Shown: positions 1,648-58,574 of the stretch, piece by piece
How the letters are laid out: each line of letters opens with the position of its first letter
Position numbering within the stretch: position 1 is the first letter of the stretch
IMG/VR virus record: IMGVR_UViG_3300045988_134731
Coordinates: 74,545-138,544 of that record
DNA: 64,000 bases
Source of the DNA: a virus
Reading direction: 5' to 3' (one strand)
Translations under genes and position numbers: made by a program
Notes under the pieces: generated by a model
The model's database searches: none
Told to the model about the DNA's origin: nothing
Seen by the model: only the letters and a program-made list of their open reading frames with translations

Positions 1648-2520
1648 TTAATTTTCTTCTATATCTATTCCAGTTATTGTTTTAAATATATCTTTATCAA
1701 AGTTAGGTAATGAAACAAATGTCAATCTTTCTTTATCGTCTATACGATTCCACATATTTCTCCATGCTTCTGTATATCTTAATTCTTTTAAATAACCTCC
1801 AGTAGCTTCATAATTGGGATGTTTTTCTTTTTCTTCATCTGTCATATTGTATTCATTAACCCATAGAGTTAATTTAAAATAATTATCTATTATTTTAAAT
1901 GCATGACTATTCTTCCATATGTCTAATGTCCAATCACTTTCTTTATTAAATAGTTTAATCGTTTCATGTTTATCATTATCGTCAGTGCAAAAGCATCCTA
2001 ATTTTTTATTGCCTAAATTACAGTCTCCAATGTTATAATTACCTTTATTATAATTACCACTATTGCAATGACCAGAATTATAATTACCACTATTCCAATT
2101 TCCAGTATTCCAATCTCCAGTATTCCAATCTCCAGTATTATAATCTCCAGTATTATAATCTCCAGTATTAGAATTTCCAGTATTATAACTACCTGTGTTT
2201 TTAATACCTGTGTTACCTTCACCAGTATTAACCATATCTAATACTTCATGCCAGTTTAATTCTCTTATTATTTTTATTTCATTTGTTACACATTTATTAT
2301 TTGAATAATTACTTTCTATAACTTCACCAGTAGCTTCTATTATAGCTACTTTGTTTTCTGGGTCAAAAGTGTAATAATTAAAACAATCAACTAGCTTTTT
2401 ACAAAAATGAAATCCTGTTTCACATATACTTATTTCTCCTTCATATTTATATGTTTCTCCTACTTTATATTGAAAACCTCTGCAAGTCCAATCTGAATTA
2501 AATACTTTATATCCTTTCAT
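1648..2520 (-). CDS. repeat protein with an N[TS]G[DN][YW] pentapeptide array
   Basis: 290-aa ORF. The N-terminal module KVFNSDWTCRGFQYKVGETY...GFHFC is followed by about 13 tandem 5-aa units (NTGDYNTGDWNTGNWNSGNYN...). Confidence 0.65.
   Translation of the reverse strand: MKGYKVFNSDWTCRGFQYKVGETYKYEGEISICETGFHFCKKLVDCFNYYTFDPENKVAIIEATGEVIESNYSNNKCVTNEIKIIRELNWHEVLDMVNTGEGNTGIKNTGSYNTGNSNTGDYNTGDYNTGDWNTGDWNTGNWNSGNYNSGHCNSGNYNKGNYNIGDCNLGNKKLGCFCTDDNDKHETIKLFNKESDWTLDIWKNSHAFKIIDNYFKLTLWVNEYNMTDEEKEKHPNYEATGGYLKELRYTEAWRNMWNRIDDKERLTFVSLPNFDKDIFKTITGIDIEEN
2025..2228 (-). repeat. 15-nt tandem coding repeat (pentapeptide array)
   Basis: Units such as aatctccagtattcc and aatctccagtattat are repeated head to tail about 13 times inside the CDS. 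Confidence 0.8.
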
Positions 2521-2633
2521 ACCTTTTTCTCCTTTCTATTATTAATAATTTTCTTGCTCTATCCATTCTTTTTCTTCTTTATCCCATACCCTAAACTTTA
2601 AGTTTTTCATATTTATCACCACCTTATATTATT

Positions 2634-2665
2634 ATATTAACATAAACTTTATAAAAATTACCTAT
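2634..2665 (-). promoter_or_regulatory. class-2 promoter motif ATAGGTAAT-N14-TGTTAATAT
   Basis: The reverse complement is cATAGGTAATTTTTataaagtttaTGTTAATAt. The distance from ATAGGT to TG is 23 nt, identical in all 9 copies. Confidence 0.5.
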
Positions 2666-2698
2666 GATTATTATTTTATTATTATTTAAATCCTCTTT

Positions 2699-2727
2699 TA
2701 AAAAATTAGAGGGAAATTAATCCCTCT
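2699..2727 (-). terminator. rho-independent terminator
   Basis: Stem AGAGGGA/TCCCTCT (2708-2714 / 2721-2727), followed on the minus strand by AATTTTTT. It lies directly after the ParR-like gene. Confidence 0.6.
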
Positions 2728-2973
2728 TTATAAATTTAAGTCATCCAATGAAAAGTCAAACTCATCTTGTTTCCTTTCTTCTACCTTTATAGTTTCACGT
2801 GAAACACTTTGTTCTACATTCATGCCATTAGCTAAATACGATTGTTCAATCTGCATGTGTAATCGAATTAAATCTTTAATAAATGCTGTTTTTGATGTTT
2901 TACCATTTAAATATTCTATAATATCGCTATCTTTCTCATTGAATGTTAATCTCATTTCTTTTTTAGTAGCCAT
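2728..2973 (-). CDS. ParR-like ribbon-helix-helix centromere-binding protein (putative)
   Basis: 81-aa ORF immediately downstream of the ParM-like gene. The N-terminus KKEMRLTFNEKDSDIIEYLNGKTSKTAFIKDLIRLHM looks like a CopG/RHH fold. Confidence 0.45.
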   Translation of the reverse strand: MATKKEMRLTFNEKDSDIIEYLNGKTSKTAFIKDLIRLHMQIEQSYLANGMNVEQSVSRETIKVEERKQDEFDFSLDDLNL

Positions 2974-2981
2974 AATATCAC

Positions 2982-3896
2982 CTACTTATATAATTTATTA
3001 GCTATATTTAATAAACCTTGTGCTTGTAAAGTTATGTCCTCAGATGATATTGTTTGTTGATATATCTTTTTCATTGTAGGTGATATAATTTTAGCTCCAC
3101 CACCAATAATGAGAATATTTGAATTCTTGATGTTATTTGTTTGCCCTTTTATTTCATTTACTAAATTAACTATAAATTTCTTAACTAACTCTTCTTTGTA
3201 TTTGAAATCACCTACTAATAAAGACTCTTCATTATCAAATATTCTTTTTGTTTGTTCTAATGATAATGATAAATCATATGTTAGGTTAAGATATTCTCTA
3301 CAAGAATTGTATAAATTAAACAATCCTAATCTTATACTAAATCCATCTTTTAATTGCATTTTATTATCGTAGACTGTAATATCACACGTATTCCCACCTA
3401 TATCCACAACCATCGTATCTACATTTTTATTTAATTTATTCATTATACCTTGTATAGATTTGATTGAATAAGACTCTGGAAGTATTGTAACATTCTCAAT
3501 TACTATACTTCTTTTAATCCCATTTATAATTATAGTCTTTTTATTATTCTTTTTAATATAATTTTCCATTTCATCTTTCTTTTTATATTGATTAACAGGA
3601 CAACAAGTTACTAAATTGATATTGTTTTCCGTATCTTTTGTAGCATTTGCTATACAATAATAAAGTAATATTAAATAATTGTCTTTTTTATATTTTAAAA
3701 GTTCATTTTCATACTTTCCTTCACCAATTAAATAACCCTCATCATCTATAGTGAATTTTTGATTTTGTGAAAAGTCATCTAATCCCTTTTCACATTTTTT
3801 AATTCTCGATTCACAAATACAACTCCCATTATTAGATATAGCTATTGACGTTAAATTACCAATGTCTACTCCTATATTGATAATATTTTTACTCAT
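2982..3896 (-). CDS. parM: ParM/StbA-like actin-fold segregation ATPase
   Basis: Actin-fold motifs are present: IGVDIGNLTS (phosphate 1), VVDIGGNTCD (phosphate 2) and IIGGGA (adenosine). The start is set at MSKNIIN because of the GGGGAGG RBS; the ORF track extends to 3989. Confidence 0.7.
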   Translation of the reverse strand: MSKNIINIGVDIGNLTSIAISNNGSCICESRIKKCEKGLDDFSQNQKFTIDDEGYLIGEGKYENELLKYKKDNYLILLYYCIANATKDTENNINLVTCCPVNQYKKKDEMENYIKKNNKKTIIINGIKRSIVIENVTILPESYSIKSIQGIMNKLNKNVDTMVVDIGGNTCDITVYDNKMQLKDGFSIRLGLFNLYNSCREYLNLTYDLSLSLEQTKRIFDNEESLLVGDFKYKEELVKKFIVNLVNEIKGQTNNIKNSNILIIGGGAKIISPTMKKIYQQTISSEDITLQAQGLLNIANKLYK

Positions 3897-4293: not shown

Positions 4294-4325
4294 ATATTAA
4301 CATAAACATTATAAAAATTATCTAT
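4294..4325 (-). promoter_or_regulatory. class-2 promoter motif (variant ATAGATAAT-N14-TGTTAATAT)
   Basis: The reverse complement is tATAGATAATTTTTataatgtttaTGTTAATAt, with the same 23-nt geometry. Confidence 0.45.
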
Positions 4326-16716: not shown

Positions 16717-16748
16717 ATATTAACAATTACTATTGAAAAATTACCTAT
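16717..16748 (-). promoter_or_regulatory. class-2 promoter motif ATAGGTAAT-N14-TGTTAATAT
   Basis: The reverse complement is cATAGGTAATTTTTcaatagtaatTGTTAATAt, with the 23-nt geometry. Confidence 0.5.
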
Positions 16749-21541: not shown

Positions 21542-21573
21542 GTATTAACAACTATATGTAAATAATCACCTAT
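21542..21573 (-). promoter_or_regulatory. class-2 promoter motif ATAGGTGAT-N14-TGTTAATAC
   Basis: The reverse complement is cATAGGTGATTATTtacatatagtTGTTAATAc, with the 23-nt geometry. Confidence 0.5.
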
Positions 21574-37031: not shown

Positions 37032-37063
37032 TTTGTAATTCATAGGTAATTTTTTATATAGTT
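37032..37063 (+). promoter_or_regulatory. class-2 promoter motif ATAGGTAAT-N14-TGTTAATAC
   Basis: cATAGGTAATTTTTtatatagttaTGTTAATAC, about 45 nt upstream of the ATG at 37108. Confidence 0.5.
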
Positions 37064-37107
37064 ATGTTAATACATAAATAAGAAATAAATAAAAAGGAGT
37101 TGATATT

Positions 37108-37472: not shown

Positions 37473-37504
37473 ATAGGTGATTTTTATAACATTTATGTTA
37501 ATAC
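37473..37504 (+). promoter_or_regulatory. class-2 promoter motif ATAGGTGAT-N14-TGTTAATAC
   Basis: cATAGGTGATTTTTataacatttaTGTTAATAC, followed by the CAAGGAGGTG RBS. Confidence 0.5.
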
Positions 37505-39832: not shown

Positions 39833-39864
39833 ATAGGTAATTTATTATACATGAATGTTAATAT
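39833..39864 (+). promoter_or_regulatory. class-2 promoter motif ATAGGTAAT-N14-TGTTAATAT
   Basis: cATAGGTAATTTATtatacatgaaTGTTAATAT, followed by TAAGGAGGTGG and a 9-codon mini-ORF (MRAFLRAFN). Confidence 0.5.
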
Positions 39865-43315: not shown

Positions 43316-43323
43316 TTGAATAT

Positions 43324-43355
43324 GGGAGGTTTTGTACCTCCCAATTATTTTTTTG
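43324..43355 (+). terminator. rho-independent terminator
   Basis: Stem GGGAGGT/ACCTCCC (43324-43330 / 43336-43342), followed by AATTATTTTTTTG. Confidence 0.7.
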
Positions 43356-43372
43356 TTTATTTGGAGGGAATT

Positions 43373-44500
43373 ATGAATAAAAAAGGATTAATACAGGATT
43401 GTTTAAATAAACTTAATAAATTAAATGATATGTCATGGGAAGATATAAATAGAAAATATGAAACAGATTATTCAGATGACCATTTAAGAAAATTAGCATA
43501 TGGATTTAAATTATATTCTGAAACTATAGATGAAAATGATATAGATAGTAAAACATTAGCTGAAATAAAAAAGGAAAAAATAAAGTTAACTGATTTAAGA
43601 ACAGAAGTGAATAGACAATTAAGAGGACTATCTAGGATGGAAAATGTAATGAATTTAATAAGTGAAGAAATTAATAATTTAAATTCAAGAAATCCATTAT
43701 TAAATCGTTATGTTCCAAAAAAAGATTCTAGTGGGAAAGACGGAATTTTGATATTAAGTGATTTACATATTTCTATGACTGTAGAAAATTCAATAAATAA
43801 GTATAATAAAGATATAGCCATAAAAAGGTTAGATAAAATAATTAATAAAACAATAGAACATTGTATTGATAATAATATAGATAAATTACATTTAGTATTG
43901 AATGGAGATTTAATATCTGGTGAATTACATAATAGTATTAAATTATCTAATCAAGAATCTTTGGTAAAACAAATAGTAAGTGTTAGTGAAATAATATCAC
44001 AGGTAATAGAAAAATTATCAAATTATTTTTATTTAACTGTAACTCAAAACAATGGTAACCATGAAGCAGTAGAAATGATGAAAGATGATAGAAGTAATAG
44101 TAACAATTATTCTATGTTATTAAATGAAATGATTAAAATGAGAACATCGAATTTATCTAATGTTGTATTTTTAGATTCGATAAATAATGGTGAATTATCT
44201 GTAATGAATGTAAAAGGAAATACAGTTGTTTCATGCCATGGCGACCAAGTTAATTTAAATAAAGTAAGTGAAGAATTATCTATGGTTATAGGTGGTGAAA
44301 ACATAGATTTAATTTTATTAGGACATTATCACCAACCTAAAATGTTTTCACAATATAATACGGATATATATGTGAACGGAAGCTTGATTTCAACAGATGA
44401 TTATGCTATGAAGAAAAAATTATATAACAAGCCTTCTCAAACATTATTAATACTTGATGAAGATGGAGTAGTTGCAAGTTATGTAATGAAAGTTGAATAA
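43373..44500 (+). CDS. calcineurin-like metallophosphoesterase (Mre11/SbcD-type fold)
   Basis: Motifs LILSDLH, NGDLISG, NGNHE, CHGD and GHYH. The start is moved to 43373 (GGAGGG RBS) because 43316-43372 is the terminator. Confidence 0.65.
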   Translation: MNKKGLIQDCLNKLNKLNDMSWEDINRKYETDYSDDHLRKLAYGFKLYSETIDENDIDSKTLAEIKKEKIKLTDLRTEVNRQLRGLSRMENVMNLISEEINNLNSRNPLLNRYVPKKDSSGKDGILILSDLHISMTVENSINKYNKDIAIKRLDKIINKTIEHCIDNNIDKLHLVLNGDLISGELHNSIKLSNQESLVKQIVSVSEIISQVIEKLSNYFYLTVTQNNGNHEAVEMMKDDRSNSNNYSMLLNEMIKMRTSNLSNVVFLDSINNGELSVMNVKGNTVVSCHGDQVNLNKVSEELSMVIGGENIDLILLGHYHQPKMFSQYNTDIYVNGSLISTDDYAMKKKLYNKPSQTLLILDEDGVVASYVMKVE

Positions 44501-44633: not shown

Positions 44634-45599
44634 ATGTATTTTAACAAAAATCACGAAGAAAAAGTTAAGAAAAATGGGAGATATATTTATATAGGTTCGT
44701 ATAAGAAAGGCGAAATAAGTAAAGATAAAAGAAACATAGGTATTAAAAGTACATATATAAGAGTTAAATGTATTAATTGCAATCACGAATATGATATTTC
44801 GTTAGCATATTTGAAAAACAACACCAAGTGTATTTATGAAAATAGTATTGCATATTATATTGAGGTTGAATTAGGAAAAGATTTAAATAAGTATTGGAAT
44901 TGGGAGAAAAATAACATAAATCCATATTATACATATAAAAATAGTAATTTAAGTGTTACAATGAAATGTACCGAAAAAGACTATCATGATGATTATCCAG
45001 TTGTAATAAAAGATTTTTATAGAGGATGTAGATGCCCATATTGTACAAATAGAAACGGTAAAGTTCATTCTAAAGATTCTTTTGGAGCTTTATATCCAGA
45101 AAAAGCTAAACATTGGGATTATAAAAAGAATAATAAGTCTCCTTATGAAGTCGCACCTAAAACTGCAAATAAATATTGGTTTAAATGTGAAGAATGTGGA
45201 AAATCTTTTAAAAGAAGTTTAACCACATATAACGCTGATATGGTGATTTGTAAAAATTGTCATATATCAAAAGGAGAGAGAATAATTAAAGATTATTTAA
45301 TTAATAATAATTTTTATTTTATTCATGATAAACCATATTTTAAAGATTTATTATCTGATTTAGGAAGAAGATTGAGACCAGATTTTATATTGCCTAATGA
45401 AAGAGTTTGGATAGAATACGATGGTAGACAGCATTATGAACTACAAAAAGGATGGCAAACTAAAGAAAATTTTAAACGATTGCAAAAGCACGATGAATTA
45501 AAAAATAATTATGCTAAACAACATAATTGGAAATTAATAAGAATACCTTATTATGATTTTGAAAATATAGAAGAAGTTTTAAATAATATATTAAAATAA
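44634..45599 (+). CDS. free-standing homing-endonuclease-like protein (zinc-ribbon repeats plus a Vsr/DUF559-like PD-(D/E)XK nuclease)
   Basis: Treble-clef-like units (YWNWEKNNINPYY..., HWDYKKNNKSPYEV...YWFKCEECGKSF). The C-terminus is RPDFILP....WIEYDGRQH....KHDELKNNYAKQHNWKLIRIPY. It is a paralog of 50967-51965 and 56050-57156. Confidence 0.6.
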   Translation: MYFNKNHEEKVKKNGRYIYIGSYKKGEISKDKRNIGIKSTYIRVKCINCNHEYDISLAYLKNNTKCIYENSIAYYIEVELGKDLNKYWNWEKNNINPYYTYKNSNLSVTMKCTEKDYHDDYPVVIKDFYRGCRCPYCTNRNGKVHSKDSFGALYPEKAKHWDYKKNNKSPYEVAPKTANKYWFKCEECGKSFKRSLTTYNADMVICKNCHISKGERIIKDYLINNNFYFIHDKPYFKDLLSDLGRRLRPDFILPNERVWIEYDGRQHYELQKGWQTKENFKRLQKHDELKNNYAKQHNWKLIRIPYYDFENIEEVLNNILK

Positions 45600-49265: not shown

Positions 49266-49282
49266 AAAAGGTGGTGAGATAT

Positions 49283-50743
49283 TTGAGCGAAGAGAAAGAC
49301 AATAAAAAGAATAATTTGAAATTTGCGCAACAAGCTTCTATGGTTGATATAAGTAACATAGATAAAATATCTAGCAATAGAAAAAGAAGTAAGGTGGATA
49401 CTGACACTATAGCTAGTGCTTTAGAAAATCCTTATTCTAATGTTACTACACTACAACAGCAAGCCGAGTTAATGAGGGTTATTAATGGTAATTTAAAAGA
49501 AATAATAAATTATAAATCGAATTTGTTAACTTACGACCATTATTTAGTTCCATTAGATGTTAGTAAGTTTATGACTAAAGGACAAGATAATTTTTTTAAA
49601 TCTTATAGAAAAGCGTGTTCAGAATTAGAAAAATATAATTTAAAAACTCTTTGTCCATGGATTCTAGAAAGTGAATTTAGAAAAGGAGAAATATATCTAT
49701 ATAAACAGGAAACAAGTGATAGCATTACATTCGTTTCTTTGCCAGAAGATTTATGTAAAGTCACTTATACTGAATCTTTTATGTTAGGTTATAGCATAAA
49801 ACTTAGTGGTATTAATACTAAACAATTAGGATATTACCCAACAGACATTCAAGATTTATATGCAAGCTATAAAGCAGGTACATTAAAGAATGATGAAAAT
49901 TTCGTAGATAACTATTATAAATTACCACTTGAAAACGCAATAGCTTTTCTTCCAGAAGTAATAGAAAGTAAAGGTATTCCATATTATTCTGGATTGCTTT
50001 TAGATTTAAGTAGGATAAAAGATTTAGCAGATGCTAGCATGGAAAATATTGAGGCTAATAATTTTAAATTAATTCATCAACTATTGCCTACAGATGATGA
50101 CGGTGATTTAAGTATAGAGCCAGAAACAGCAACGTTTTATCATAGAGCATTAGTTAAAAATGTCAGAGATGGTATAGGTGTTGTAAGTTCACCTTATCCA
50201 ATAGATTCCGTTTCATTACAAACTAATAAGGTTTCTGATTATGAGGAAATAAACAATTTAACTAAAAATGTATACGATACAGCTGGTATAGATAGTAATT
50301 TATTTAATGGTGACAATAGAAGTAGTACACAATCTGTAATTTATGGAACGATTGTTGACAGTTTAGCACCATTAAATTTATTGGATAGAATTAAAATTTG
50401 GTTAAATTATGCTTTTAGTAAAAATTCATCATTAAAGAACTTTCAATTGTGTTTTTGTGATACAACCAAATTTAATAAAGAGGAAAGAATCCAATCTAGT
50501 TGCAATAGATTAACTACATGGGCAAGCAAATTGGAATATTTAGGATTATGTGGATATTCTCCGTTAGAAGCGTTGAATATATTACAAATAGAATCAATAC
50601 TAGATTTTAGCAATTTAATGACTCCATTAGCTAATAGTCATAGTCAAGTTATTGATAATGATAAAGGTGGAAGACCAAAGGCTAGTGAACAATCTGGTGA
50701 CCCAAATAGAGCGCCGGTGGCAGACAATGCAGGAGATTATTAA
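49283..50743 (+). CDS. putative portal protein
   Basis: An ORF of about 486 aa directly after terL. The TTG start lies 6 nt after the GGTGGTGA RBS; the ORF track starts at GTG 49271. The call rests on position and size. Confidence 0.55.
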   Translation: MSEEKDNKKNNLKFAQQASMVDISNIDKISSNRKRSKVDTDTIASALENPYSNVTTLQQQAELMRVINGNLKEIINYKSNLLTYDHYLVPLDVSKFMTKGQDNFFKSYRKACSELEKYNLKTLCPWILESEFRKGEIYLYKQETSDSITFVSLPEDLCKVTYTESFMLGYSIKLSGINTKQLGYYPTDIQDLYASYKAGTLKNDENFVDNYYKLPLENAIAFLPEVIESKGIPYYSGLLLDLSRIKDLADASMENIEANNFKLIHQLLPTDDDGDLSIEPETATFYHRALVKNVRDGIGVVSSPYPIDSVSLQTNKVSDYEEINNLTKNVYDTAGIDSNLFNGDNRSSTQSVIYGTIVDSLAPLNLLDRIKIWLNYAFSKNSSLKNFQLCFCDTTKFNKEERIQSSCNRLTTWASKLEYLGLCGYSPLEALNILQIESILDFSNLMTPLANSHSQVIDNDKGGRPKASEQSGDPNRAPVADNAGDY

Positions 50744-50966: not shown

Positions 50967-51965
50967 ATGTATTTTAATGAAAAACATAAAGAAAAAGTTG
51001 AAAATCGTGGAGATGGTTATGTCTATGTAGGAAGTTATCATAAAAATGAAGTAACTATGGATGGGAAAAATAAAAAATATAGTAATACTTATGTAAGGGT
51101 TAAATGTCCTTATTGTAAAAAGGACTATGATGTTATATTTGGTCATTTTAATCGTGGTAGTAAATGTCCTAATTGTTGTCATAGTTATGAGAATAGTTTT
51201 GCTTATTATATTGAAAAAGAATTAAATGAAAAATTAGAGGATTATTGGGACTTTGAAGAAAATGAAAGAAGAGGTATAAATCCTTACTGTATAACTTGTA
51301 AAAGTCATAATAAAATCATTTTAATATGTGATAAAACTGATTATCATGGTAATTATACTACAACTCCTGCTCATTTTTTAGAAGGTAAAAGATGCCCTTA
51401 TTGTTCACATACAAATGGTAAAATACATCCAAAAGATAGTTTTGGAGCTTTATATCCTGAAAAAGCCAAATATTGGTCTCCTAATAACAAGAAATCACCT
51501 TTTAAAGTAACACCTAGAACTAATATAAAATATAAGTTTATATGTGAAGAATGTGGTAATGAATTTGAGAGGGATTTAGCAAATTTAAATCAAGTTGATA
51601 CAGGTGTGTTTTGTAGAGAATGTAATTCTTCTCAATTAGAAATAAAAACTAAGAATGTATTAGTTAAATATAATATCAAATATGAAATGCAAGTGAAATA
51701 TGACGATTTATTAGGACTAGGAAAAAGAAATCTTTCTTATGACTTTTACTTACCAAGTTATAACCTATTGATAGAGTGTCAAGGCGTACAACACGAATCA
51801 TGGCAAAAAACTTGGATTACCAAAGAGGATTTTGAAAAACAATTAGAACATGATAGGAGAAAAAGAGAATATGCACAAAAACATAACATTAGATTATTAG
51901 AAATTTGGTATTATAACATAGATAATATCGAAGATATATTAATAAAAGAATTAAATTTAGGATAG
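50967..51965 (+). CDS. free-standing homing-endonuclease-like protein (paralog 2)
   Basis: The first roughly 60 aa are near-identical in pattern to 44634-45599 (MYFN.KH.EKV...Y.YVGSY.K.E...D..N). The C-terminus is SYDFYLP...LIECQGVQH...EHDRRKREYAQKHNIRLLEIWY. Confidence 0.6.
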   Translation: MYFNEKHKEKVENRGDGYVYVGSYHKNEVTMDGKNKKYSNTYVRVKCPYCKKDYDVIFGHFNRGSKCPNCCHSYENSFAYYIEKELNEKLEDYWDFEENERRGINPYCITCKSHNKIILICDKTDYHGNYTTTPAHFLEGKRCPYCSHTNGKIHPKDSFGALYPEKAKYWSPNNKKSPFKVTPRTNIKYKFICEECGNEFERDLANLNQVDTGVFCRECNSSQLEIKTKNVLVKYNIKYEMQVKYDDLLGLGKRNLSYDFYLPSYNLLIECQGVQHESWQKTWITKEDFEKQLEHDRRKREYAQKHNIRLLEIWYYNIDNIEDILIKELNLG

Positions 51966-53045: not shown

Positions 53046-54320
53046 TTGGGAAATAAACATTTAAAATTATATAGTGAAATGGAAGTTTTTAAATCTTCAA
53101 GTGATAGTAGATTTGTTCCCTGTAGAATACTTGCATGCCACGACCAAGATAATTTAAATGGTTCTTGGTTTGATTCAGAAACACAAATGAAATGTGCTGA
53201 AAAAAGTATTAGAGGTATACCCTTATTAGCTCATGTTTATAAAAATGAAGATGACGAATGGGTTTTAGGTGGACATGATACTAAAGTGGAGGCTACTGAT
53301 ACTCCAGATGGTTACGACTATCAATTGATATATCTTGAAAAAGCTTATGGATTTGTTCCAGAAGATACTATAATTACACAAGTAGAAAAAGACGGTAAGA
53401 AATATTTATCTTGCACAGCATTAATATGGAGGGAGTATTCCCAACAATTACTTGATATATTAGATTCTAACGATGGTGCATTAGAAGTATCTATGGAAAT
53501 AAATGTTGACGATTTCAGCTTTAGAGAAGATGGATTCTTTGAAATAACTGATTTTACTTTTTTAGGTATAACAATGCTTGGTGTAGGTGTTCAACCTGCT
53601 ATGGCAGGAGCTAACTTATCTCTGTTCACTTGTGGAGATGTTAAAACTGAATTAGAAGAAATGAAGAAAATTTATTCTTTAGAAAAGGGAGGTGAAACAA
53701 TGGACAAAGAGTTTGAAAATCAAGAAGTTCAAGAAACTGAAGAATTTGAAAATCAAGAGGAAACTCAACAAGAAGATTTCACTCCAGATGAAGAAGAACA
53801 AAAAGAAGAATGTTCTCAAGATAATTCTGAAGAAAAGAAAGAAGATTGTTCAGAAGAGGAAGAAGATAAAGATAAGGAAAATCATTCTGTTGAAGATAAC
53901 ACAGAAGATGAAAAATATACACAATTAAAAACTGCTTTTGACCAATTAAAAGTTGAATATGAAGAATTAAAAACTCAATTAGAAAACATGAGTGATTATG
54001 AAGAATTAAAACAATTTAAAGCTGATAGCGATGCTAAACAATTTAAATTAGAAATTGATTCTATAACTGAAAAATATTCTTTAGATACAGAAGATGCTAA
54101 AGCACTTCAAGACACAGTATTAAAACATGAAATATCTAAAGAAGAATATGAAGGGAAATTAGCTATAATGTGGGCTAAACAAGTTAAAGAAGCTCAATCA
54201 TTTAGTAAAACTAAAACTGGAAAGGCTAATTCAATAGGTATAATAAATCCAAATGAAGAATTTATAGATTCTAATGCACCTTACGGTGGTAGATTAGAAA
54301 AATGGAGAACTAAAAAATAA
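53046..54320 (+). CDS. putative scaffolding protein (globular N-domain, acidic linker, coiled coil), possibly a prohead-protease-scaffold fusion
   Basis: 424 aa with a TTG start. It has an extremely acidic stretch (EEFENQEETQQEDFTPDEEEQKEE...) followed by heptad-like K/E-rich helices. It lies between the portal and capsid genes. Confidence 0.45.
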   Translation: MGNKHLKLYSEMEVFKSSSDSRFVPCRILACHDQDNLNGSWFDSETQMKCAEKSIRGIPLLAHVYKNEDDEWVLGGHDTKVEATDTPDGYDYQLIYLEKAYGFVPEDTIITQVEKDGKKYLSCTALIWREYSQQLLDILDSNDGALEVSMEINVDDFSFREDGFFEITDFTFLGITMLGVGVQPAMAGANLSLFTCGDVKTELEEMKKIYSLEKGGETMDKEFENQEVQETEEFENQEETQQEDFTPDEEEQKEECSQDNSEEKKEDCSEEEEDKDKENHSVEDNTEDEKYTQLKTAFDQLKVEYEELKTQLENMSDYEELKQFKADSDAKQFKLEIDSITEKYSLDTEDAKALQDTVLKHEISKEEYEGKLAIMWAKQVKEAQSFSKTKTGKANSIGIINPNEEFIDSNAPYGGRLEKWRTKK

Positions 54321-54340
54321 TAAAACAGGAGGTAAAATTT

Positions 54341-54862
54341 ATGTATCAAATATTAACTTATGTAGAAGATAATTTTGCTAAATCAGCAATATGCTCTACT
54401 GAATTAAAAAATGGTGAAGTAGTATTAGTAAAAGGACTAGCTGATTCAACTCTAGCTAAAATAGATGATATAGGAGTTGAAGGTGAATGTTATGAAGTGA
54501 CAAACTTAGAAGATGACGCTAATAAAATATTAGCTATGGTAGCATCTGACGGTCATAGATATGAAAAAGAAACATCTTATAATTTTGGTGATTATGCAAA
54601 CACACCAGCTGGAGAAGCAGTGAGAATTTATTTCTTACACAAAGGTATGGTTGTTGATATAGAAAAAACACTTATAGATGGAACTGTTGCTAAAGGAGAC
54701 CAATTAACTGTTAAAGCTGGTTCACATAATCTTAAAAAATACACTGCTCCAGTTGCTAGTGAAGCAGGTACTGGTGAAGCAGGTGCTAAAAGAATAGTAG
54801 GGGAAGTTATAGGCACTTCACAATTAATGGGTAAAGATATGGTGCAAATATTATTCTATTAA
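54341..54862 (+). CDS. hypothetical head-module protein (possible decoration or auxiliary capsid protein)
   Basis: 173-aa ORF with a CAGGAGG RBS, immediately upstream of the capsid gene. Confidence 0.5.
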   Translation: MYQILTYVEDNFAKSAICSTELKNGEVVLVKGLADSTLAKIDDIGVEGECYEVTNLEDDANKILAMVASDGHRYEKETSYNFGDYANTPAGEAVRIYFLHKGMVVDIEKTLIDGTVAKGDQLTVKAGSHNLKKYTAPVASEAGTGEAGAKRIVGEVIGTSQLMGKDMVQILFY

Positions 54863-54896
54863 GAATAAAATAATTAATAAAATGGAGGTTAAAAGA

Positions 54897-55741
54897 ATGA
54901 TAGATAACGATGTTAGACAAATGGTAATAGACTTACATAACGGTGTGTGTTCTTATTCAAGAAAAGAAGCTTCAGATGTTATAAGAAATATGATATTTGA
55001 AAAAGTAGAACCACTTCCAGAAAAAAAATCTAATTATAGAAGATGGTTAAAAAGAAATGGTAATACAGTATTTGAATTATTAGAAGAATTAATAACTGTA
55101 ACTCATAACGAAATAACTGTTGAATCTTTTGGGGATTTAGTAGATGTTGACACTTTTGATATAGGAGATAAAAAAGAATTTTTAATTCAAAATGACGAAT
55201 TGTTCAAAGTTGCTATAATGGCTACTGGTGTCAAAACAGTTCATAGACAAAGAATCTATGATAAAAAGGTAGATACTAAAGCTTTCAGATTAGGCGTTAA
55301 AATCTATGCTGAAATGTTTGATTTCTTAAAAGGAAATATAGACTGGACTTTATTTGTAGATAGAGTATCTAAATCTTTTGATAAAAAAGTATGTACTTTA
55401 GTTACAAAAACTATATTTGGAGCTTATGATGCTTCTGGAAATCCAAATTTATGTAAAGCATCTAATGACGGTGCTTTATCAACTACTTTAAAAGAAATGA
55501 TAGCTAAAGTTGCAGATTCTACAGGTCAAGAAGTTCAAATACTAGGAACTAAAACTGCATTAGCTCATGTAAAATCAGATGCGACTTTTGTATCAGATGC
55601 TGAAAAAGACGATAGAAGAAATTATGGATATACTCAAGTATTTGAAGGTACTCCTTTAGTTCCATTACCAAATTATTATGATAAAACTACTGGTGCTTTT
55701 GAAGTTGATGACGATATGTTATTAATAGTTCCGGTTAACGT
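54897..55741 (+). CDS. putative major capsid protein, exon 1
   Basis: The start is set at MIDNDV after the TGGAGGT RBS. The frame ends ...LLIVPVNVE-TAA, but a matching C-terminal frame resumes at about 57302. The boundary is uncertain by about 6 nt. Confidence 0.55.
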
Positions 55742-55994
55742 AGAATAAATACTACAACAGCCCGTATATCGAGCAATCGGTATAGGACACAACTTGAATT
55801 GCAGGTAATGGGTAAAGCTCTACACCAAAGCGGATAGTGAAAACTAAGACGTAACGGTACGAAAGTAGAAAAAACGTAGAGATGGTGCATGGTTAAATCC
55901 TAAACACTAGATGATTAAATTCATTACAATCCCTGTTCATGCAGGTAAGCGTCCCTGTTTTAATATTAATTATTTTGTTTAAAAGGTTAAAATA

Positions 55995-56026
55995 ATAGGT
56001 AATTTTATCAATAGTTATGTTAATAC
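55995..56026 (+). promoter_or_regulatory. class-2 promoter motif inside the intron, upstream of the endonuclease ORF
   Basis: aATAGGTAATTTTAtcaatagttaTGTTAATAC, followed by the GAAGGAGGTGG RBS and the ATG at 56050. Confidence 0.5.
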
Positions 56027-56049
56027 AATAATATGAAGGAGGTGGTAAT

Positions 56050-57156
56050 ATGCCAAAGAAATTAACTTATGAGGAAGTTAAAGAATATATTGAATCGCAA
56101 GGTTATAAATTGATATCTAAAGAATACATAAAAAGCGATGTTAAACTTGAAATGATATGTCCTAATGGTCATCAATGTTATATATCATGGGATAATTTTA
56201 AATACGGAAGAAGATGTAAAGAATGTAAATATGAAAAACTTTCTAAAGAGTATAAATTTTCTTATGATTATGTAAATAATTATGTCCAATCGCTTGGATT
56301 TGAATTGTTATCTGATAAATATGAAAATAATCAAACCCTTTTAAAAATAAAATGTGATAAAGGACATGAATTTGAACGACAATTTAATAATTTAAAACAT
56401 AACCATGAATGTCCTGTTTGCAAAGAAAATAAAAATAAGAAAAAGAAAAGTGAAGAAATGATAAAAGAAATACAAGAATATTTAAATAAATTTGGTTACA
56501 AATTGATATCAACTGAATATGTAAATCATGGTGAAAAATTAGATATGATTTGTAATGAAGGACATAAATGTTCTATCTCATGGGGAAATTTTAAGTCTGG
56601 AAGAAGATGTAAAGTTTGTAATGATATAGAAAAATCCAAAAGAAATCGTAAAGATTATAATGAAGTTAAATCTTATATAGAATCTTTCGGTTATGAATTG
56701 ATAAGTAAAGAATATTTTAATCAAGATGGTTTACTTACTATTAAGTGTCCCGAAAATCACGTTTTTAAAATGACGTATAAAATGTTTAAGCGTGGTAGCA
56801 GATGCCCAATATGTAATAAGTCAAAGGGAGAAAAAAGGATAAGTGATTATTTGGATGAAAAACATATTAAATATGAATATAATAAAGGTTATTTTGATGA
56901 TTTGATTGGGTATAGTGGAAGATTGTTAAGACCAGACTTTATTTTACCAGACTGTAAAATTTGGATAGAATATGATGGAGAGTTTCATTATAATAAAATT
57001 TATGAGAATGATAGTTATGATATAATGAAAATACATGATAAAATCAAAGATACATATGCAAAGGAACATGATTGGAAATTAATAAGAATCCCATATTGGG
57101 AATTTGATAATATAGAAACCATTTTAAACAAAGAATTAAAAATAATTAATAAATAG
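56050..57156 (+). CDS. intron-encoded homing-endonuclease-like protein (paralog 3)
   Basis: Three repeated modules (YKLISKEYIKSDVKLEMICPNGHQCYISWDNFKYGRRCKEC...) precede the same nuclease end: RPDFILP...WIEYDGEFH...IHDKIKDTYAKEHDWKLIRIPY. Confidence 0.65.
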   Translation: MPKKLTYEEVKEYIESQGYKLISKEYIKSDVKLEMICPNGHQCYISWDNFKYGRRCKECKYEKLSKEYKFSYDYVNNYVQSLGFELLSDKYENNQTLLKIKCDKGHEFERQFNNLKHNHECPVCKENKNKKKKSEEMIKEIQEYLNKFGYKLISTEYVNHGEKLDMICNEGHKCSISWGNFKSGRRCKVCNDIEKSKRNRKDYNEVKSYIESFGYELISKEYFNQDGLLTIKCPENHVFKMTYKMFKRGSRCPICNKSKGEKRISDYLDEKHIKYEYNKGYFDDLIGYSGRLLRPDFILPDCKIWIEYDGEFHYNKIYENDSYDIMKIHDKIKDTYAKEHDWKLIRIPYWEFDNIETILNKELKIINK

Positions 57157-57301
57157 AACGAGATGAAACTTCAACGACTATTCCGAGAGGAAGTACACTC
57201 AAGCGAGTGGAAGTGGGTTGCCCCTATATTTATAGGGTGAAGAAATAGTCTATTCTTTAGTGAAAGCTAAAGCAGTTCATAAGAGAACGGTATAAAAATA
57301 G

Positions 57302-57485
57302 CGAATTTATACGAATAAAAAGTGGAGAATCACTTGTAAAACTTGGATATGAAGGTGATGTTGAATTGTACGAAGATACAGAAGGAGATAGACAAGACTA
57401 TCAAATAGAAATGGAAATGAATCGTATGTTACACTTAGGAGTTGCTATAGCTTCTACATACGCAATGATAAAAATAACTGCATAA
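57302..57485 (+). CDS. putative major capsid protein, exon 2
   Basis: The frame is open from 57264 without a start codon and encodes ...EFIRIKSGESLVKLGYEGDVELYEDTEGDRQDYQIEMEMNRMLHLGVAIASTYAMIKITA. A hairpin follows at 57507-57530. Confidence 0.5.
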
Positions 57486-57556
57486 TAATTAATATTTAAA
57501 TAATATAGCACTACTTTAATTAGTAGTGCTTAATTCTACAAGAAGGGAGAATAAAA

Positions 57557-58153
57557 ATGGAAAAAATAAAGAAAACTACTAAAACGAAGACTGTAGATAA
57601 AACGGAAGAAATCAAAAAAAAAGTAGAAACAAAAAAAACTAAAAGACAGATAAATATGGAATTAAGAAAAAAACAAGACGAAATATATATTGAAATTTGC
57701 AATATGTCTTTTATGAGTGTAATATACATGAATAAAAATGAAGAAACTTATTTTGATTTATATCCAAATGAATATGCTGAATTACCACTATCGGAATTAT
57801 ATGAAGTTGCAACTAAAAATAAATCATATTTTAAAGATTATATGTTGGCAATAACAGATGTTTTATCTGATGAATATACAATAGATAATATAATTGATTA
57901 TTTAGGTATAACAAGTATATATAATAGTGAAGAAAATCAATTTGCTATGCAAATAGATTCAATATTAAATCTTTCAGATGATGTTTTTGAAAGAGAAATT
58001 GAAGGAAGAAGTAATAAATTTATAAGAACTTTAGCTTGTAAAGCTATATTATTAACTAAATCTGAAGAATCTGACTATGAGTTATCAAGAAAAAAAGAAC
58101 GTGTTTTATGCAGAAAATTAGGAAGAGAACAATTAATAGATATTGATGAATAG
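57557..58153 (+). CDS. hypothetical structural-module protein (Lys-rich N-terminus)
   Basis: 198-aa ORF with a GAAGGGAG RBS. Confidence 0.6.
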   Translation: MEKIKKTTKTKTVDKTEEIKKKVETKKTKRQINMELRKKQDEIYIEICNMSFMSVIYMNKNEETYFDLYPNEYAELPLSELYEVATKNKSYFKDYMLAITDVLSDEYTIDNIIDYLGITSIYNSEENQFAMQIDSILNLSDDVFEREIEGRSNKFIRTLACKAILLTKSEESDYELSRKKERVLCRKLGREQLIDIDE

Positions 58154-58163
58154 AGGTGATTAA

Positions 58164-58574
58164 ATGACACCTGTCACAGAAATTTATGATTTATTTTTAA
58201 AACATTTAGGTAAAGATGATTTATTAGAAATAGATGAATCCGTCCTTGAAGATTTGTTAGAATCCTACTTATATGTTTCAATATCTAATTTTGAACAATG
58301 CAAACAAGATTTAACTATAGAGGACGGCTATTTTAAATCTGAATTAAATTGGAAAGAAAAACAAATATTAGCTAAAGGTATGTTGATTCCTTTTGTGGAT
58401 ACAAAAATACTTAATAGAGACGCTTTAACTATTCATATAACAGATAGTGAGTATTCTATTAAGTCCCCTGCAACCTTATTAAATAACCTTTTAAAAACTA
58501 GAGAAATGTATGTTAAAGAGTTAAGAAAGTTAAAAATAGGTTATGCCACAAGAGGAGTTGACATAAATGAGTAA
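58164..58574 (+). CDS. hypothetical head-tail connector-region protein
   Basis: 136-aa ORF. The call rests on its position after the capsid gene. Confidence 0.5.
   Translation: MTPVTEIYDLFLKHLGKDDLLEIDESVLEDLLESYLYVSISNFEQCKQDLTIEDGYFKSELNWKEKQILAKGMLIPFVDTKILNRDALTIHITDSEYSIKSPATLLNNLLKTREMYVKELRKLKIGYATRGVDINE

What the first reader, a model, noticed from the sequence alone, without database searches (positions are those of the whole stretch)
54897..57485. Major capsid gene interrupted by a roughly 1.56-kb intron carrying a homing-endonuclease gene
The capsid-position ORF ends at 55748 (...LLIVPVNVE). A start-less frame resumes at about 57302 and runs to 57485 (...EFIRIKSGESLVKLGYEGDVELYEDTEGDRQDYQIEMEMNRMLHLGVAIASTYAMIKITA).

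Between them lie 230 nt of GC-richer ORF-free sequence, then an endonuclease-like ORF (56050-57156), then 145 nt of further GC-richer sequence.

The junction 55741|57302 keeps the frame (845+184 = 1029 nt, 342 aa). It places a T at the exon end and a G at the insert end. The alternatives 55735|57302 and 55736|57291 are equally frame-compatible.

The endonuclease ORF has its own class-2 promoter and strong RBS inside the intron (55995-56049). It could therefore be expressed independently of the late capsid transcript.
Basis: partly seen in the sequence, partly recalled or inferred. Interest (0 to 1): 0.7.

Follow-up and report, generated by a model that had tools for sequence, protein, structure and literature searches.

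The report
Self-splicing intron splitting phage capsid gene

Summary
The core of the finding holds. The HK97-fold major capsid gene (Pfam YonB type) is interrupted by a group I intron that carries a homing-endonuclease gene.

The junction is not 55741|57302. A 98%-identical intron-less allele (L003) shows that the insert is exactly 55736-57322 (1,587 nt). Exon 1 ends at U55735, the intron ends at G57322 and exon 2 starts at 57323. The spliced product is 333 aa and 99% identical to the uninterrupted homolog. The segment "NVEFIRIKS" is intronic.

Rfam RF00028 finds nothing here. A profile of 53 ORF-less relatives hits both ribozyme halves collinearly (E 1.8e-28 and 1.5e-22). Several of those relatives pass RF00028 at 64-93 bits.

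Helices P3, P4, P5, P6, P6a, P7, P7.1, P7.2 and P9 are 87-100% paired across 44 relatives, with compensatory changes. The ORF sits in the P6a loop.

The endonuclease has a Vsr-like (EDxHD-type, I-Bth0305I-like) nuclease domain and four zinc-ribbon modules. It is not an HNH enzyme. A promoter-like motif that occurs 8 times in the window (0 expected) precedes it.

This is a new member of a known kind. Splicing and homing are inferred, not shown.

The parts
54897..55735 (+). Capsid exon 1 (839 nt; codons 1-279 plus the first 2 nt of codon 280). Its last base, U55735, pairs with G55760 of the internal guide sequence.
   Evidence: ORF and RBS. phrog_4088 positions 5-280, E 9e-71. DNA alignment to the intron-less allele L003 ends at 55735. 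tblastn of the spliced protein finds only this copy in the window.
55736..57322 (+). Group I intron, 1,587 nt, IA2-like (it has P7.1 and P7.2), with the ORF in the P6a loop. It starts UAAC and ends ...AAAAAG (omega-G at 57322).
   Evidence: Absent from the 98%-identical allele L003. A family nhmmer profile hits 55754-55952 (E 1.8e-28) and 57162-57288 (E 1.5e-22), collinear. Covariation supports the helices.
55733..55762 (+). P1. The 5' strand is GGU|U (55733-55736). The internal guide sequence is AGCC (55759-55762). The U55735-G55760 wobble lies at the 5' splice site.
   Evidence: Direct reading of the sequence. The register matches relative L015 (GGAU|UAAC...AGUCC) in the RF00028 alignment. 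The intron-less allele has A at the 55733 equivalent, which would break the G-C pair. The helix is short (4 bp) and has not been tested by covariation.
55765..55784 (+). P2 hairpin UAUAUCGA-GCAA-UCGGUAUA (GNRA loop).
   Evidence: One search gives the coordinates. 76% of cells are paired in 44 relatives, against 23-50% when the partner is shifted.
55790..55796 (+). P3 5' strand, CAAC-U-UG. It pairs with 57214-57220 (UG-G-GUUG).
   Evidence: P3a is 97% paired with CG, GC, TA and AT pair types (shifted controls 31-53%). P3b is 93% paired.
55799..55944 (+). P4 (55799-55803 with 55940-55944) enclosing P5 (GGG 55810-12 with CCC 55931-33). P5 carries an extended domain: P5a 55818-23 with 55876-81, two GAAA-capped hairpins, and the GG-UUAAAU-CC hairpin at 55885-55907.
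   Evidence: P4 is 98% paired; this intron has A-U where the family has U-A. P5 is 100% paired; this intron has GGG/CCC where the family has CCC/GGG or UCC/GGA. P5d1 is 100% paired. The same P5 insertion is seen in RF00028-positive relatives L040 and L015.
55945..55953 (+). P6 (GU) and P6a (CGUC) 5' strands. They pair with 57162-57165 and 57168-57169. The loop between them holds the promoter-like motif and the endonuclease gene.
   Evidence: P6 is 100% paired with CG, GC, TA and AT types. P6a is 98% paired. The nhmmer hits break between model positions 209 and 216.
55995..56026 (+). Promoter-like motif ATAGGTAAT-N14-TGTTAATAC, 23 nt upstream of the endonuclease start codon.
   Evidence: 8 matches in the window against 0 expected in 100 shuffles. 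Each match is followed by an RBS-like sequence. Promoter function is inferred.
56036..56045 (+). Ribosome-binding site AAGGAGGUGG. It ends 4 nt before the ATG; the GGAGG core (56038-56042) lies 7 nt upstream of the ATG.
   Evidence: Sequence.
56050..57156 (+). Homing-endonuclease gene, 368 aa. It has four tandem zinc-ribbon (CapR / treble-clef-like) modules and a C-terminal Vsr-like nuclease domain (D296, E307, D309, H313, D330, K333).
   Evidence: phrog_559 at 3e-75 and phrog_9084 'homing endonuclease' at 1e-18. AlphaFold model pLDDT 91.7. Foldseek matches to Vsr 1cw0 and I-Bth0305I 3r3p_B, TM 0.71, probability 1.00. Residue conservation in 44 homologs. A 99%-identical protein lies in the same context on at least 22 contigs.
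57162..57169 (+). P6a and P6 3' strands (GAUG..AC).
57170..57250 (+). Catalytic core: J6/7 UUCAAC; P7 GACUA (57176-80) with UAGUC (57246-50); P7.1 57181-92 (GAGA loop); P7.2 57196-57209; P3 3' strand 57214-20; P8 57222-37; J8/7 GAAGAAA.
   Evidence: A 46-nt stretch, 57172-57217, is 96% identical to RF00028-positive introns of Staphylococcus Silviavirus phages and of the Pseudoalteromonas phage pYD6-A DNA polymerase gene. P7 is invariant in 44 relatives. P7.1 is 96.5% paired and P7.2 is 87% paired. The MFE fold recovers P7.1, P7.2 and P8.
57255..57322 (+). P9 (CUUUAGU-GAAA-GCUAAAG, 57255-72), P9.1 (57275-88), P9.2 (57290-57312), then GAAUAAAAAG ending in omega-G 57322.
   Evidence: P9 is 92% paired with many pair types. 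The MFE fold of 57157-57322 recovers P9, P9.1 and P9.2, z = -2.3. The same 3' end, GAAUAAAAAG|UGGAGAA, is seen in relative L131.
57323..57485 (+). Capsid exon 2: the last base of codon 280, codons 281-333 and the stop codon.
   Evidence: DNA alignment to L003 resumes at 57323. phrog_4088 positions 282-332. The spliced protein is 329/333 identical to P0001 with no gap.

Best explanation
Window 55736-57322 is a mobile group I intron. It is IA2-like, with P7.1/P7.2 and an extended P5 domain. It is inserted in the HK97-fold major capsid gene of an SPbeta-like (YonB/YonD-type) phage.

Inferred mechanism:
1. On the late capsid transcript the RNA folds into the P1-P9 core.
2. An external guanosine attacks after U55735, which pairs with G55760 of the guide sequence.
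3. The freed exon 1 attacks after omega-G57322.
4. The exons join as CCGGU|UGGAG, restoring a 333-aa capsid protein that reads ...LLIVPV-GESLVKL...

The P6a loop carries a 368-aa endonuclease gene. The protein has four zinc-ribbon modules for DNA binding and a Vsr-like, EDxHD-type nuclease domain. It is probably transcribed from its own phage promoter, of a type shared with seven other genes in the window. It would cut intron-less capsid alleles of co-infecting relatives near the insertion site, so that repair copies the intron in (homing).

Shown here: the exact insertion, the splice-site nucleotides, homology of both ribozyme halves to bona fide group I introns, covariation-supported helices, the nuclease fold, the HK97 capsid fold, and natural co-existence of intron-plus and intron-less alleles.

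Inferred: splicing activity, endonuclease specificity, promoter activity and homing.
For: Insertion and splice sites:
- The intron-less allele L003 is 97-99% identical on both sides and lacks exactly 55736-57322.
- The spliced product is 329/333 identical to P0001 with no gap.
- Fifteen further uninterrupted homologs align across the junction.
- U precedes the 5' splice site and G is the last intron base.

Ribozyme:
- 57172-57217 is 96% identical to introns that score 88-104 bits on RF00028.
- A motif from the P5 domain retrieved more than 118 viral-contig loci. Of 20 tested, 9 loci carried 11 hits that pass RF00028 at 64-93 bits.
- An nhmmer profile of 53 ORF-less members hits the two halves collinearly, E 1.8e-28 and 1.5e-22, and nothing else in the window.
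- Helix-by-helix pairing across 44 relatives is 87-100% for P3, P4, P5, P6, P6a, P7, P7.1, P7.2 and P9. Shifted controls give 9-72% (2-68% if P5d1 is counted). Strand-swap compensation is seen in this intron at P4, P5 and P6.
- The MFE fold recovers the 3' helices.

Endonuclease and capsid:
- The endonuclease model has pLDDT 91.7. It matches Vsr and the I-Bth0305I catalytic domain. E307, D309, H313 and D330 are conserved.
- The capsid model matches HK97-fold capsids, with 270 PDB hits at E<=1e-3.
- The intron-plus allele is present on at least 22 contigs from many samples with exon 2 intact. Related endonucleases (63% and 51% identity) also sit just downstream of truncated YonB (capsid exon 1) ORFs.
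Against: - RF00028 gives no hit in the window at the gathering score, or at E<=10 on 55600-57450. It also finds nothing in the ORF-less sister copy L016. Membership therefore rests on homology to relatives and on covariation, not on the curated model.
- P1 is only 4 bp and P10 is essentially absent (2 bp).
- J8/7 differs from the family consensus by one base (GAAGAAA against GAAGAUA).
- J5/4 lacks the usual AA.
- Close relatives at the same site (L131) and at a second site (L133, L016) cannot satisfy both the U(-1) and the omega-G rule. This leaves open whether the lineage has relaxed requirements or includes defective copies.
- There are no RNA or protein data.
Confidence: 0.92

Rival explanations
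1. One reading: the intron is 55742-57301 (or ends at 57301 or 57290), giving a 340-344-aa capsid protein that contains ...PVNVEFIRIKSGES...
For: The junction is frame-compatible, with T at 55741 and G at 57301.
Against: - All 16 homologs, including a 99%-identical uninterrupted one, lack these nine residues.
- The DNA of the intron-less allele aligns only up to 55735 and from 57323 onward.
- 57290-57312 forms helix P9.2, so G57301 is in its loop.
- The segment from 55736 begins with the same UAAC as relatives.
Confidence: 0.01
2. The insert is a non-splicing insertion: a free-standing endonuclease cassette, or a decayed intron, that has killed the capsid gene. The contig would then be a defective phage, or the truncated 283-aa protein would be what is used.
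For: - There is no expression data.
- RF00028 is silent.
- P1 is short.
- Sister copies break a splice-site rule.
- Two free-standing paralogous nuclease genes exist in the same module.
Against: - Exon 2 stays in frame and 97% identical to the intron-less allele.
- Compensatory changes keep P3, P4, P5 and P6 paired.
- The same arrangement recurs on at least 22 contigs from independent samples.
- Exon 2 encodes the last ~50 residues, predicted as core beta-strands of the HK97 fold.
- There is no second capsid gene in the window.
Confidence: 0.05
3. The insert is another kind of intervening element: a group II intron, an intein, or programmed recoding across the gap.
For: None beyond the gene being split.
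Against: - In-frame stops at 55746 and several more before 57264 exclude an intein or readthrough.
- No reverse-transcriptase ORF and no Rfam group II hit were found.
- The core is homologous to RF00028-positive group I introns.
Confidence: 0.01

Closest known systems
Phage IA2-type group I introns with P7.1/P7.2, such as the Twort-like/Kayvirus and Silviavirus Staphylococcus phage introns, the Pseudoalteromonas phage pYD6-A DNA polymerase intron and T4 td
   Same: - The helix order is P1-P2-P3-P4-P5-P6-P7-P7.1-P7.2-P3'-P8-P7'-P9.
- The 46-nt stretch J6/7-P7-P7.1-P7.2 is 96% identical.
- The ORF is looped out of P6a; that this matches T4 td is from my own knowledge.
- U precedes the 5' splice site and the intron ends in omega-G.
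   Different: - The host gene is an SPbeta-type capsid gene.
- The P5 domain is extended by about 120 nt.
- P4, P5 and P6 have swapped strands relative to the family.
- The intron is not detected by RF00028.
- The endonuclease is of a different family.
Capsid-gene group I introns: mycobacteriophage LittleE gp13 (819-bp intron with an HNH gene, spliced, shown by RT-PCR and N-terminal sequencing) and lactococcal phage Tuc2009 (PMC3706429)
   Same: - An essential, highly expressed major capsid gene is split.
- An intron-less allele exists in close relatives.
- U precedes the 5' splice site and the intron ends in G.
- In LittleE the intron carries an endonuclease gene.
   Different: - The host phage lineages and capsid families are unrelated.
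- The LittleE endonuclease is HNH and is transcribed in the opposite direction; here it is Vsr-like and co-directional.
- Splicing has not been demonstrated here.
I-Bth0305I, the EDxHD homing-endonuclease family (Bacillus phage 0305phi8-36 recA intron; PMC3239194, PDB 3R3P)
   Same: - It is an intron-encoded phage endonuclease.
- The nuclease domain is C-terminal and Vsr-like (Foldseek TM 0.71 to 3r3p_B, probability 1.00).
- E, D, H and D residues are conserved in the same order.
   Different: - The N-terminal DNA-binding part is four zinc-ribbon (CapR / treble-clef) modules, not NUMOD/HTH motifs.
- Sequence similarity is undetectable by HMMER against PDB.
- In I-Bth0305I the ORF interrupts P5; here it sits in the P6a loop.
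SPbeta group I introns in bnrdE/bnrdF (from my own knowledge, not tested here)
   Same: The host phage type is SPbeta-like, and these are group I introns with endonuclease ORFs.
   Different: The host genes differ (ribonucleotide reductase against capsid). No sequence comparison was made here.

Membership tests
Group I intron | Precise intervening sequence whose removal restores the uninterrupted gene | tested here: met
   L003 lacks exactly 55736-57322. The spliced protein is 329/333 identical to P0001 with no gap.
Group I intron | U at the 3' end of exon 1, in a U-G wobble with the internal guide sequence (P1) | tested here: met
   U55735 pairs with G55760 within GGU|U / AGCC. The helix is only 4 bp. 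The register agrees with relative L015 in the RF00028 alignment.
Group I intron | [quoted passage not shown] | tested here: met
   G57322 directly precedes exon 2.
Group I intron | Conserved core P3-P4-P5-P6-P7-P8-P9 with the P3/P7 pseudoknot, supported by covariation | tested here: met
   Paired cells across 44 relatives: P3 93-97%, P4 98%, P5 100%, P6 100%, P6a 98%, P7 100% (invariant), P9 92%. Shifted controls are much lower, and this intron carries compensatory swaps. P8, P5a and P5b were limited by the alignment.
Group I intron | Score at or above the Rfam RF00028 gathering threshold (50 bits) | tested here: not met
   No hit in the window at the gathering score or at E<=10, and none in the ORF-less sister L016. 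Relatives linked by nhmmer (E 1e-28 and 1e-22) score 64-104 bits.
Group I intron | Guanosine-dependent self-splicing | not testable with these tools
   This needs in-vitro transcription and splicing, or RT-PCR.
Subgroup IA2-like | Extra helices P7.1 and P7.2 between P7 and P3' | tested here: met
   P7.1 is 57181-92 (96.5% paired) and P7.2 is 57196-209 (87% paired). The MFE fold recovers both. The formal subgroup assignment is from memory of the classification.
EDxHD / Vsr-like homing endonucleases (I-Bth0305I) | Vsr-like nuclease fold | tested here: met
   Foldseek: 1cw0_A probability 1.00; 3r3p_B TM 0.71, rmsd 3.7 over 108 columns, probability 1.00. The E-values are weak (4e-3 to 1e-2) because the query has several domains.
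EDxHD / Vsr-like homing endonucleases (I-Bth0305I) | Composite catalytic motif E, D, x, H, D | tested here: inconclusive
   Conservation in 44 homologs: E307 43/44, D309 38/44, H313 44/44, D330 44/44, plus D296 and K333 44/44. No residue-level superposition on 3R3P was made.
EDxHD / Vsr-like homing endonucleases (I-Bth0305I) | N-terminal NUMOD/HTH DNA-binding region | tested here: not met
   The N-terminus is four repeats of about 65 aa, each with a zinc-ribbon motif (CxxxH...CxxC or Cx4H...CxxC). Relatives hit PF21817 CapR and PF14311.
EDxHD / Vsr-like homing endonucleases (I-Bth0305I) | Cleaves the intron-less allele next to the insertion site | not testable with these tools
   This needs a cleavage assay on the L003 sequence.
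HNH endonucleases (label of phrog_559) | beta-beta-alpha-metal HNH motif | tested here: not met
   No HNH Pfam or NCBIfam hit was found. The modelled nuclease domain matches Vsr-like, PD-(D/E)XK-type folds.
HK97-fold major capsid protein (Pfam YonB PF27364) | HK97 fold, and position in the head module after a scaffold/protease-like gene | tested here: met
   The model has pTM 0.73, and 270 PDB matches at E<=1e-3 are all capsids or encapsulins. PF27364 is assigned to homologs. YonD_N lies upstream. Homologs in Bacillus phages are annotated as major capsid protein.

The most novel reading that the evidence does not exclude
This intron belongs to a sub-lineage of phage group I introns that the curated Rfam model cannot see. 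The sub-lineage has colonised two sites 27 nt apart in the same capsid gene. The ribozyme 5' halves at the two sites are 96-97% identical, and the guide sequence is re-targeted (AGCC against GCCU). That points to ectopic transposition by reverse splicing or illegitimate homing.

Sister copies appear to splice with C or G instead of U at exon position -1. If so, the lineage tolerates a non-wobble pair at the cleavage site.

The endonuclease sits under a non-late phage promoter and has two free-standing paralogs in the same head module. It could therefore act mainly as a weapon against co-infecting relatives, as reported for the PhiPA3 intron endonuclease (PMC11620839), and not only as a selfish passenger.
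Probability: 0.2. Interest if true: 0.55.

Novelty: new member of a known kind. Interest (0 to 1): 0.35.

Why it matters
**Annotation.** Gene callers report a truncated 283-aa "YonB" capsid protein plus an orphan ORF on at least 22 public contigs. The correct product is a 333-aa spliced protein.

**A blind spot in Rfam.** RF00028 misses this intron sub-lineage entirely, even when no ORF is present. Intron surveys of phage metagenomes that rely on that model will therefore under-count it.

**A mislabelled endonuclease family.** More than 2,000 proteins in the database search, labelled 'HNH' in PHROGs, carry a Vsr-like (EDxHD-type) nuclease domain with zinc-ribbon arrays. This widens the known architectures of that homing-endonuclease family.

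**Material for experiments.** Intron-plus and intron-less alleles exist in nature, and a second insertion site lies 27 nt away. Together they give a ready system for testing homing, co-conversion and retargeting.

None of this changes the general picture of phage group I introns.

Tried and rejected
1. Rfam cmscan of the whole window at gathering, of 55600-57450 at E<=10 and of L016 at E<=1 gave no group I hit. I first blamed the 1.1-kb ORF. The ORF-less sister copy is also missed, so the cause is sequence divergence of the sub-lineage.
2. Several of my first hand assignments of helices were wrong, and the family alignment replaced them:
   - 'CAGCCCGU/GUGGGUUG' as P3 (it is the guide sequence);
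   - 'AAUCGG' as the guide sequence (it is the P2 3' strand);
   - P4' as CCUGU;
   - P6 as GUUCAU/AUGAAAC.
3. Megablast of 54300-58200 against the phage collection found no related phage. It returned only the 46-nt core match.
4. Sequence searches of PDB with the endonuclease, as a single sequence and as a 44-sequence profile, gave only chance-level hits. Only the fold comparison was informative.
5. Pfam and NCBIfam on the endonuclease and capsid pieces gave sub-threshold hits only.
6. The generic sigma-70 scan found 19 sites against 21.9 expected, so it gives no support. The phage-specific motif does give support.
7. mafft-qinsi, a structure-aware aligner, is not installed, so I used L-INS-i. 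As a result P5a, P5b, P8 and P2 are under-supported for alignment reasons.
8. I did not build a covariance model, and I did not run the count of structure pairs. The pair counts are from my own script.
Full report
**1. What is in the sequence**

The ORF in capsid position runs to TAA at 55746-55748 and ends ...LLIVPVNVE.
- Its likely start is ATG 54897, 7 nt after GGAGG. This matches the N-terminus MIDNDV of homologs.
- In the same genomic phase a start-less frame is open from 57264 to the stop at 57483-57485.
- A 368-aa ORF lies between them at 56050-57156.
- It is flanked by two ORF-free stretches with GC 0.37-0.39, against 0.21-0.30 around them.
- PHROG family phrog_4088 (332 positions) matches exon 1 over positions 5-280 (E 9e-71) and the downstream piece over positions 282-332 (E 3e-9). 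One gene is therefore cleanly split.

**2. The junction**

All carry Pfam PF27364 (YonB).
- The best, P0001, is 333 aa and uninterrupted. In the alignment every homolog lacks exactly the nine residues NVEFIRIKS and reads ...IVPV-GESLVKLGYEGD....
- I fetched the contig that encodes P0001 (L003) and aligned its DNA to the window. Window 54771-55735 corresponds to L003 1402-2366 (98.4% identity). Window 57323-57552 corresponds to L003 2367-2596 (97.4%). Nothing in L003 corresponds to 55736-57322.
- The junction in L003 is GTTCCAGT|TGGAGAA. In the window it is GTTCCGGT|[1,587 nt]|TGGAGAA.
- A one-base T ambiguity remains. Only 55735|57323 puts a U before the 5' splice site and a G at the end of the insert.
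- The corrected spliced protein (839 + 163 nt, 333 codons) is 329/333 identical to P0001 without a gap.
The alternative 55735|57302 has the right 5' site only.

**3. Is it a group I intron?**

Rfam is silent. It gave no family at the gathering score in the whole window and no RF00028 hit at E<=10 in 55600-57450.

Links to known group I introns:
- Megablast against phage genomes found a 46-nt stretch (57172-57217) that is 96-97% identical to two kinds of site. One is an unannotated gap after a 'truncated capsid protein' in Staphylococcus Silviavirus genomes. The other lies inside the joined DNA-polymerase CDS of Pseudoalteromonas phage pYD6-A, just after an intronic HNH gene.
- RF00028 scores those places at 88-104 bits.
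- A motif from the 5' half, AGATGGT-N4-GGTTAAATCCTAA, retrieved more than 118 loci from viral contigs. I tested 20 of them with Rfam; nine loci carried 11 RF00028 hits of 64-93 bits. In those alignments the motif sits in an insertion in the P5 loop.

Profile search:
- I extracted 53 distinct ORF-less family members and built an nhmmer profile without the window sequence.
- It hits the window at 55754-55952 (model 15-209, E 1.8e-28) and 57162-57288 (model 216-346, E 1.5e-22). The two hits are collinear and on the same strand.
- Nothing else in the window is significant.
- The 5' hit is partly by construction, because 20 fixed bases were used to fish. The rest of it, and the whole 3' hit, are independent.

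**4. Structure**

I mapped helices on the ORF-deleted intron and counted pairs across 44 relatives (<90% identical to one another) in a MAFFT alignment.

| Helix | Cells forming standard pairs | Note |
|---|---|---|
| P3a | 97% | shifted-partner controls 31-53% |
| P3b | 93% | |
| P4 | 98% | |
| P5 | 100% | |
| P5d1 | 100% | |
| P6 | 100% | four pair types |
| P6a | 98% | |
| P7 | 100% | invariant GACUA/UAGUC |
| P7.1 | 96.5% | |
| P7.2 | 87% | |
| P9 | 92% | many pair types |
| P5c | 82% | |
| P2 | 76% | |

- P5a, P5b and P8 vary in length and were not aligned well enough to judge.
- The window's intron carries strand-swapped compensations. P5 is GGG/CCC where relatives have CCC/GGG or UCC/GGA. 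P6 is GU/AC where relatives mostly have CC/GG. One P4 pair is A-U where relatives have U-A.
- An unconstrained MFE fold of 57157-57322 independently gives P7.1, P7.2, P8, P9, P9.1 and P9.2 (z = -2.3).
- P1 is short: GGU|U (55733-55736) with AGCC (55759-55762), including the U55735-G55760 wobble. The intron-less allele has A in place of G55733, which would remove one P1 pair.
- The endonuclease gene lies in the P6a loop, between P6a 5' (55950-55953) and P6a 3' (57162-57165).

**5. Why Rfam misses it**

L016 is a viral contig with an ORF-less intron whose 5' half is 96% identical to this one. It gets no RF00028 hit even at E<=1. The miss is a property of the sub-lineage and not of the ORF.

**6. 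The endonuclease**

- PHROG hits are phrog_559 'HNH endonuclease' (3e-75), phrog_681 and phrog_9084 'homing endonuclease'. Pfam, NCBIfam and PDB sequence searches gave only sub-threshold hits.
- A protein search found more than 2,000 relatives. One is a 99%-identical protein on 14-22 contigs. Relatives carry PF21817 (CapR homology domain) and PF14311 (treble-clef zinc finger), and some carry PF18741.
- An AlphaFold model from 44 homologs has pLDDT 91.7.
- Against PDB the C-terminal domain matches Vsr endonuclease (1cw0, probability 1.00) and the I-Bth0305I catalytic domain (3r3p_B, TM 0.71, probability 1.00).
- D296, H313, D330 and K333 are invariant. E307 is 43/44 and D309 is 38/44. This fits the E-D-x-H-D composite described for that family (PMC3239194).
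- The N-terminus differs from that family. It has four zinc-ribbon repeats of about 65 aa instead of NUMOD motifs.
- I therefore read it as a Vsr-like, EDxHD-type homing endonuclease with a different DNA-binding array. The 'HNH' label is a misnomer.

**7. Expression signals**

- The RBS AAGGAGGUGG ends 4 nt before the ATG; its GGAGG core lies 7 nt upstream of the ATG.
- A generic sigma-70 scan is not above chance.
- The 32-nt motif ATAGGTAAT-N14-TGTTAATAY at 55995-56026 occurs 8 times in the window with at most one mismatch, against 0 expected. Each copy is followed by an RBS-like sequence.
- The other copies lie at 2.6-21.6 kb on the minus strand and at 37-40 kb on the plus strand. None is in the head module.
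Activity and timing are inferred.

**8. The host gene**

- A model of P0001 (pTM 0.73) matches HK97-fold capsids and encapsulins only, with 270 PDB hits at E<=1e-3.
- Homologs in Bacillus phages are annotated as major capsid protein. The nearest phage relatives are Clostridioides phiCD211-like and SPbeta-like phages at 25-40% identity.
- Neighbouring genes carry the SPbeta-type Pfam families YonD_N and YomV.
- Exon 2 encodes the last ~50 residues, predicted as beta-strands.
- No second capsid gene is present in the window.

**9. Population context**

- The intron-plus arrangement (283-aa truncated YonB, then the 368-aa ORF) recurs on at least 22 contigs from many samples. The intron-less allele also exists.
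- Endonucleases 63% and 51% identical to this one also sit directly downstream of truncated YonB (capsid exon 1) ORFs. The family profile hits both ribozyme halves around them.
- L130 and L131 have the intron at the same site in a more divergent capsid gene.
- L133 (with a 302-aa endonuclease) and L016 (ORF-less, 409 nt) have it 27 nt further downstream (GYEG|DVE). Their 5' halves are 96-97% identical to the window's, and the guide sequence is changed from AGCC to GCCU.
- Exon differences between the window and L003 cluster just downstream of the junction, at +19 and +37 to +43. This fits co-conversion or target-site divergence, but it rests on one comparison.

**10. An unresolved point**

In L131, L133 and L016 no choice of junction gives both U at -1 and a terminal G. 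The window's own allele satisfies both rules.

**11. Comparison with what is known, and verdict**

- Group I introns in phage capsid genes are documented. LittleE is spliced and carries an HNH gene, and Tuc2009 is another case (PMC3706429).
- EDxHD endonucleases in phage introns are documented (PMC3239194).
- This is a new member of a known kind, with a well-supported structure and a corrected junction.
- Splicing, homing and promoter activity are inferred.
- Interest is moderate to low. It is raised slightly by the Rfam blind spot, the mis-annotated endonuclease architecture and the two-site sub-lineage.

Noticed in passing
window 44634-45599 (+) and 50967-51965 (+): Two more ORFs (321 and 332 aa) carry the same Vsr-like nuclease domain. 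They are 49% and 37.5% identical to residues ~250-365 of the intron ORF and have different zinc-finger N-termini. They sit between head-module genes (after ORF 43316-44500, and between the 490-aa ORF at 49271-50743 and the S8 peptidase gene). They look like free-standing homing endonucleases.
   Followed up: partly
window 2634-2665(-), 4294-4325(-), 16717-16748(-), 21542-21573(-), 37042-37073(+), 37473-37504(+), 39833-39864(+), 55995-56026(+): A promoter-like motif with fixed spacing, ATAGGTAAT-N14-TGTTAATAY, occurs 8 times against 0 expected. Each copy lies shortly upstream of an RBS-like sequence. It is probably a phage-specific promoter class for non-late genes, one copy of which lies inside the capsid intron.
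   Followed up: partly
L016 (reverse strand, about 654-1062 of the reversed locus) and L133 2704-4076: Sister introns sit in a homologous capsid gene at a second site, 27 nt downstream (GYEG|DVE). One is ORF-less (409 nt) and one carries a 302-aa related endonuclease. Their 5' ribozyme halves are 96-97% identical to the window's, and the guide sequence is changed. Protein P0002 (297 aa) is the run-on exon 1 ORF of this allele.
   Followed up: partly
L131 ~831-2422, L133, L016 junctions: In these relatives the exon junction cannot satisfy both group I rules. With the terminal G kept, exon position -1 is C (L131) or G (L133, L016). With U at -1 kept, the intron ends in T or C.
   Followed up: partly
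L001 (Staphylococcus phage qdsa001, KY779848) 2257-3373: Four consecutive RF00028 hits (34-104 bits) lie within about 1.1 kb, after a CDS annotated 'truncated capsid protein' and before an unannotated gap. A structural gene there is evidently split by several tandem group I introns and is mis-annotated.
   Followed up: no
window 55941-55958: A hairpin GCAGG-UAAGCGUC-CCUGU followed by UUUUAAUAUU was flagged as terminator-like. It uses the P4 3' strand and the P6 and P6a 5' strands. It would therefore compete with the ribozyme fold, and it might insulate the endonuclease gene from read-through.
   Followed up: no
window 54756-54770: A 15-nt (5-codon) insertion relative to L003 lies in the gene just upstream of the capsid gene (173 aa here, 168 aa in L003 and L122). 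It falls within a GEAG-type repeat (...TGEAGAKR...).
   Followed up: no
window 57341-57365 against L003: Exon 2 substitutions between the intron-plus and intron-less alleles cluster at +19 and at +37 to +43 from the junction. The second group lies on the second insertion site (site B). Only one substitution occurs in the 100 nt upstream, at -3.
   Followed up: no
L003 6553-7529: The contig with the intron-less allele carries an IS605 OrfB/TnpB-like gene (PF01385, PF07282) a few genes downstream of the capsid gene. I did not check whether the window has it.
   Followed up: no
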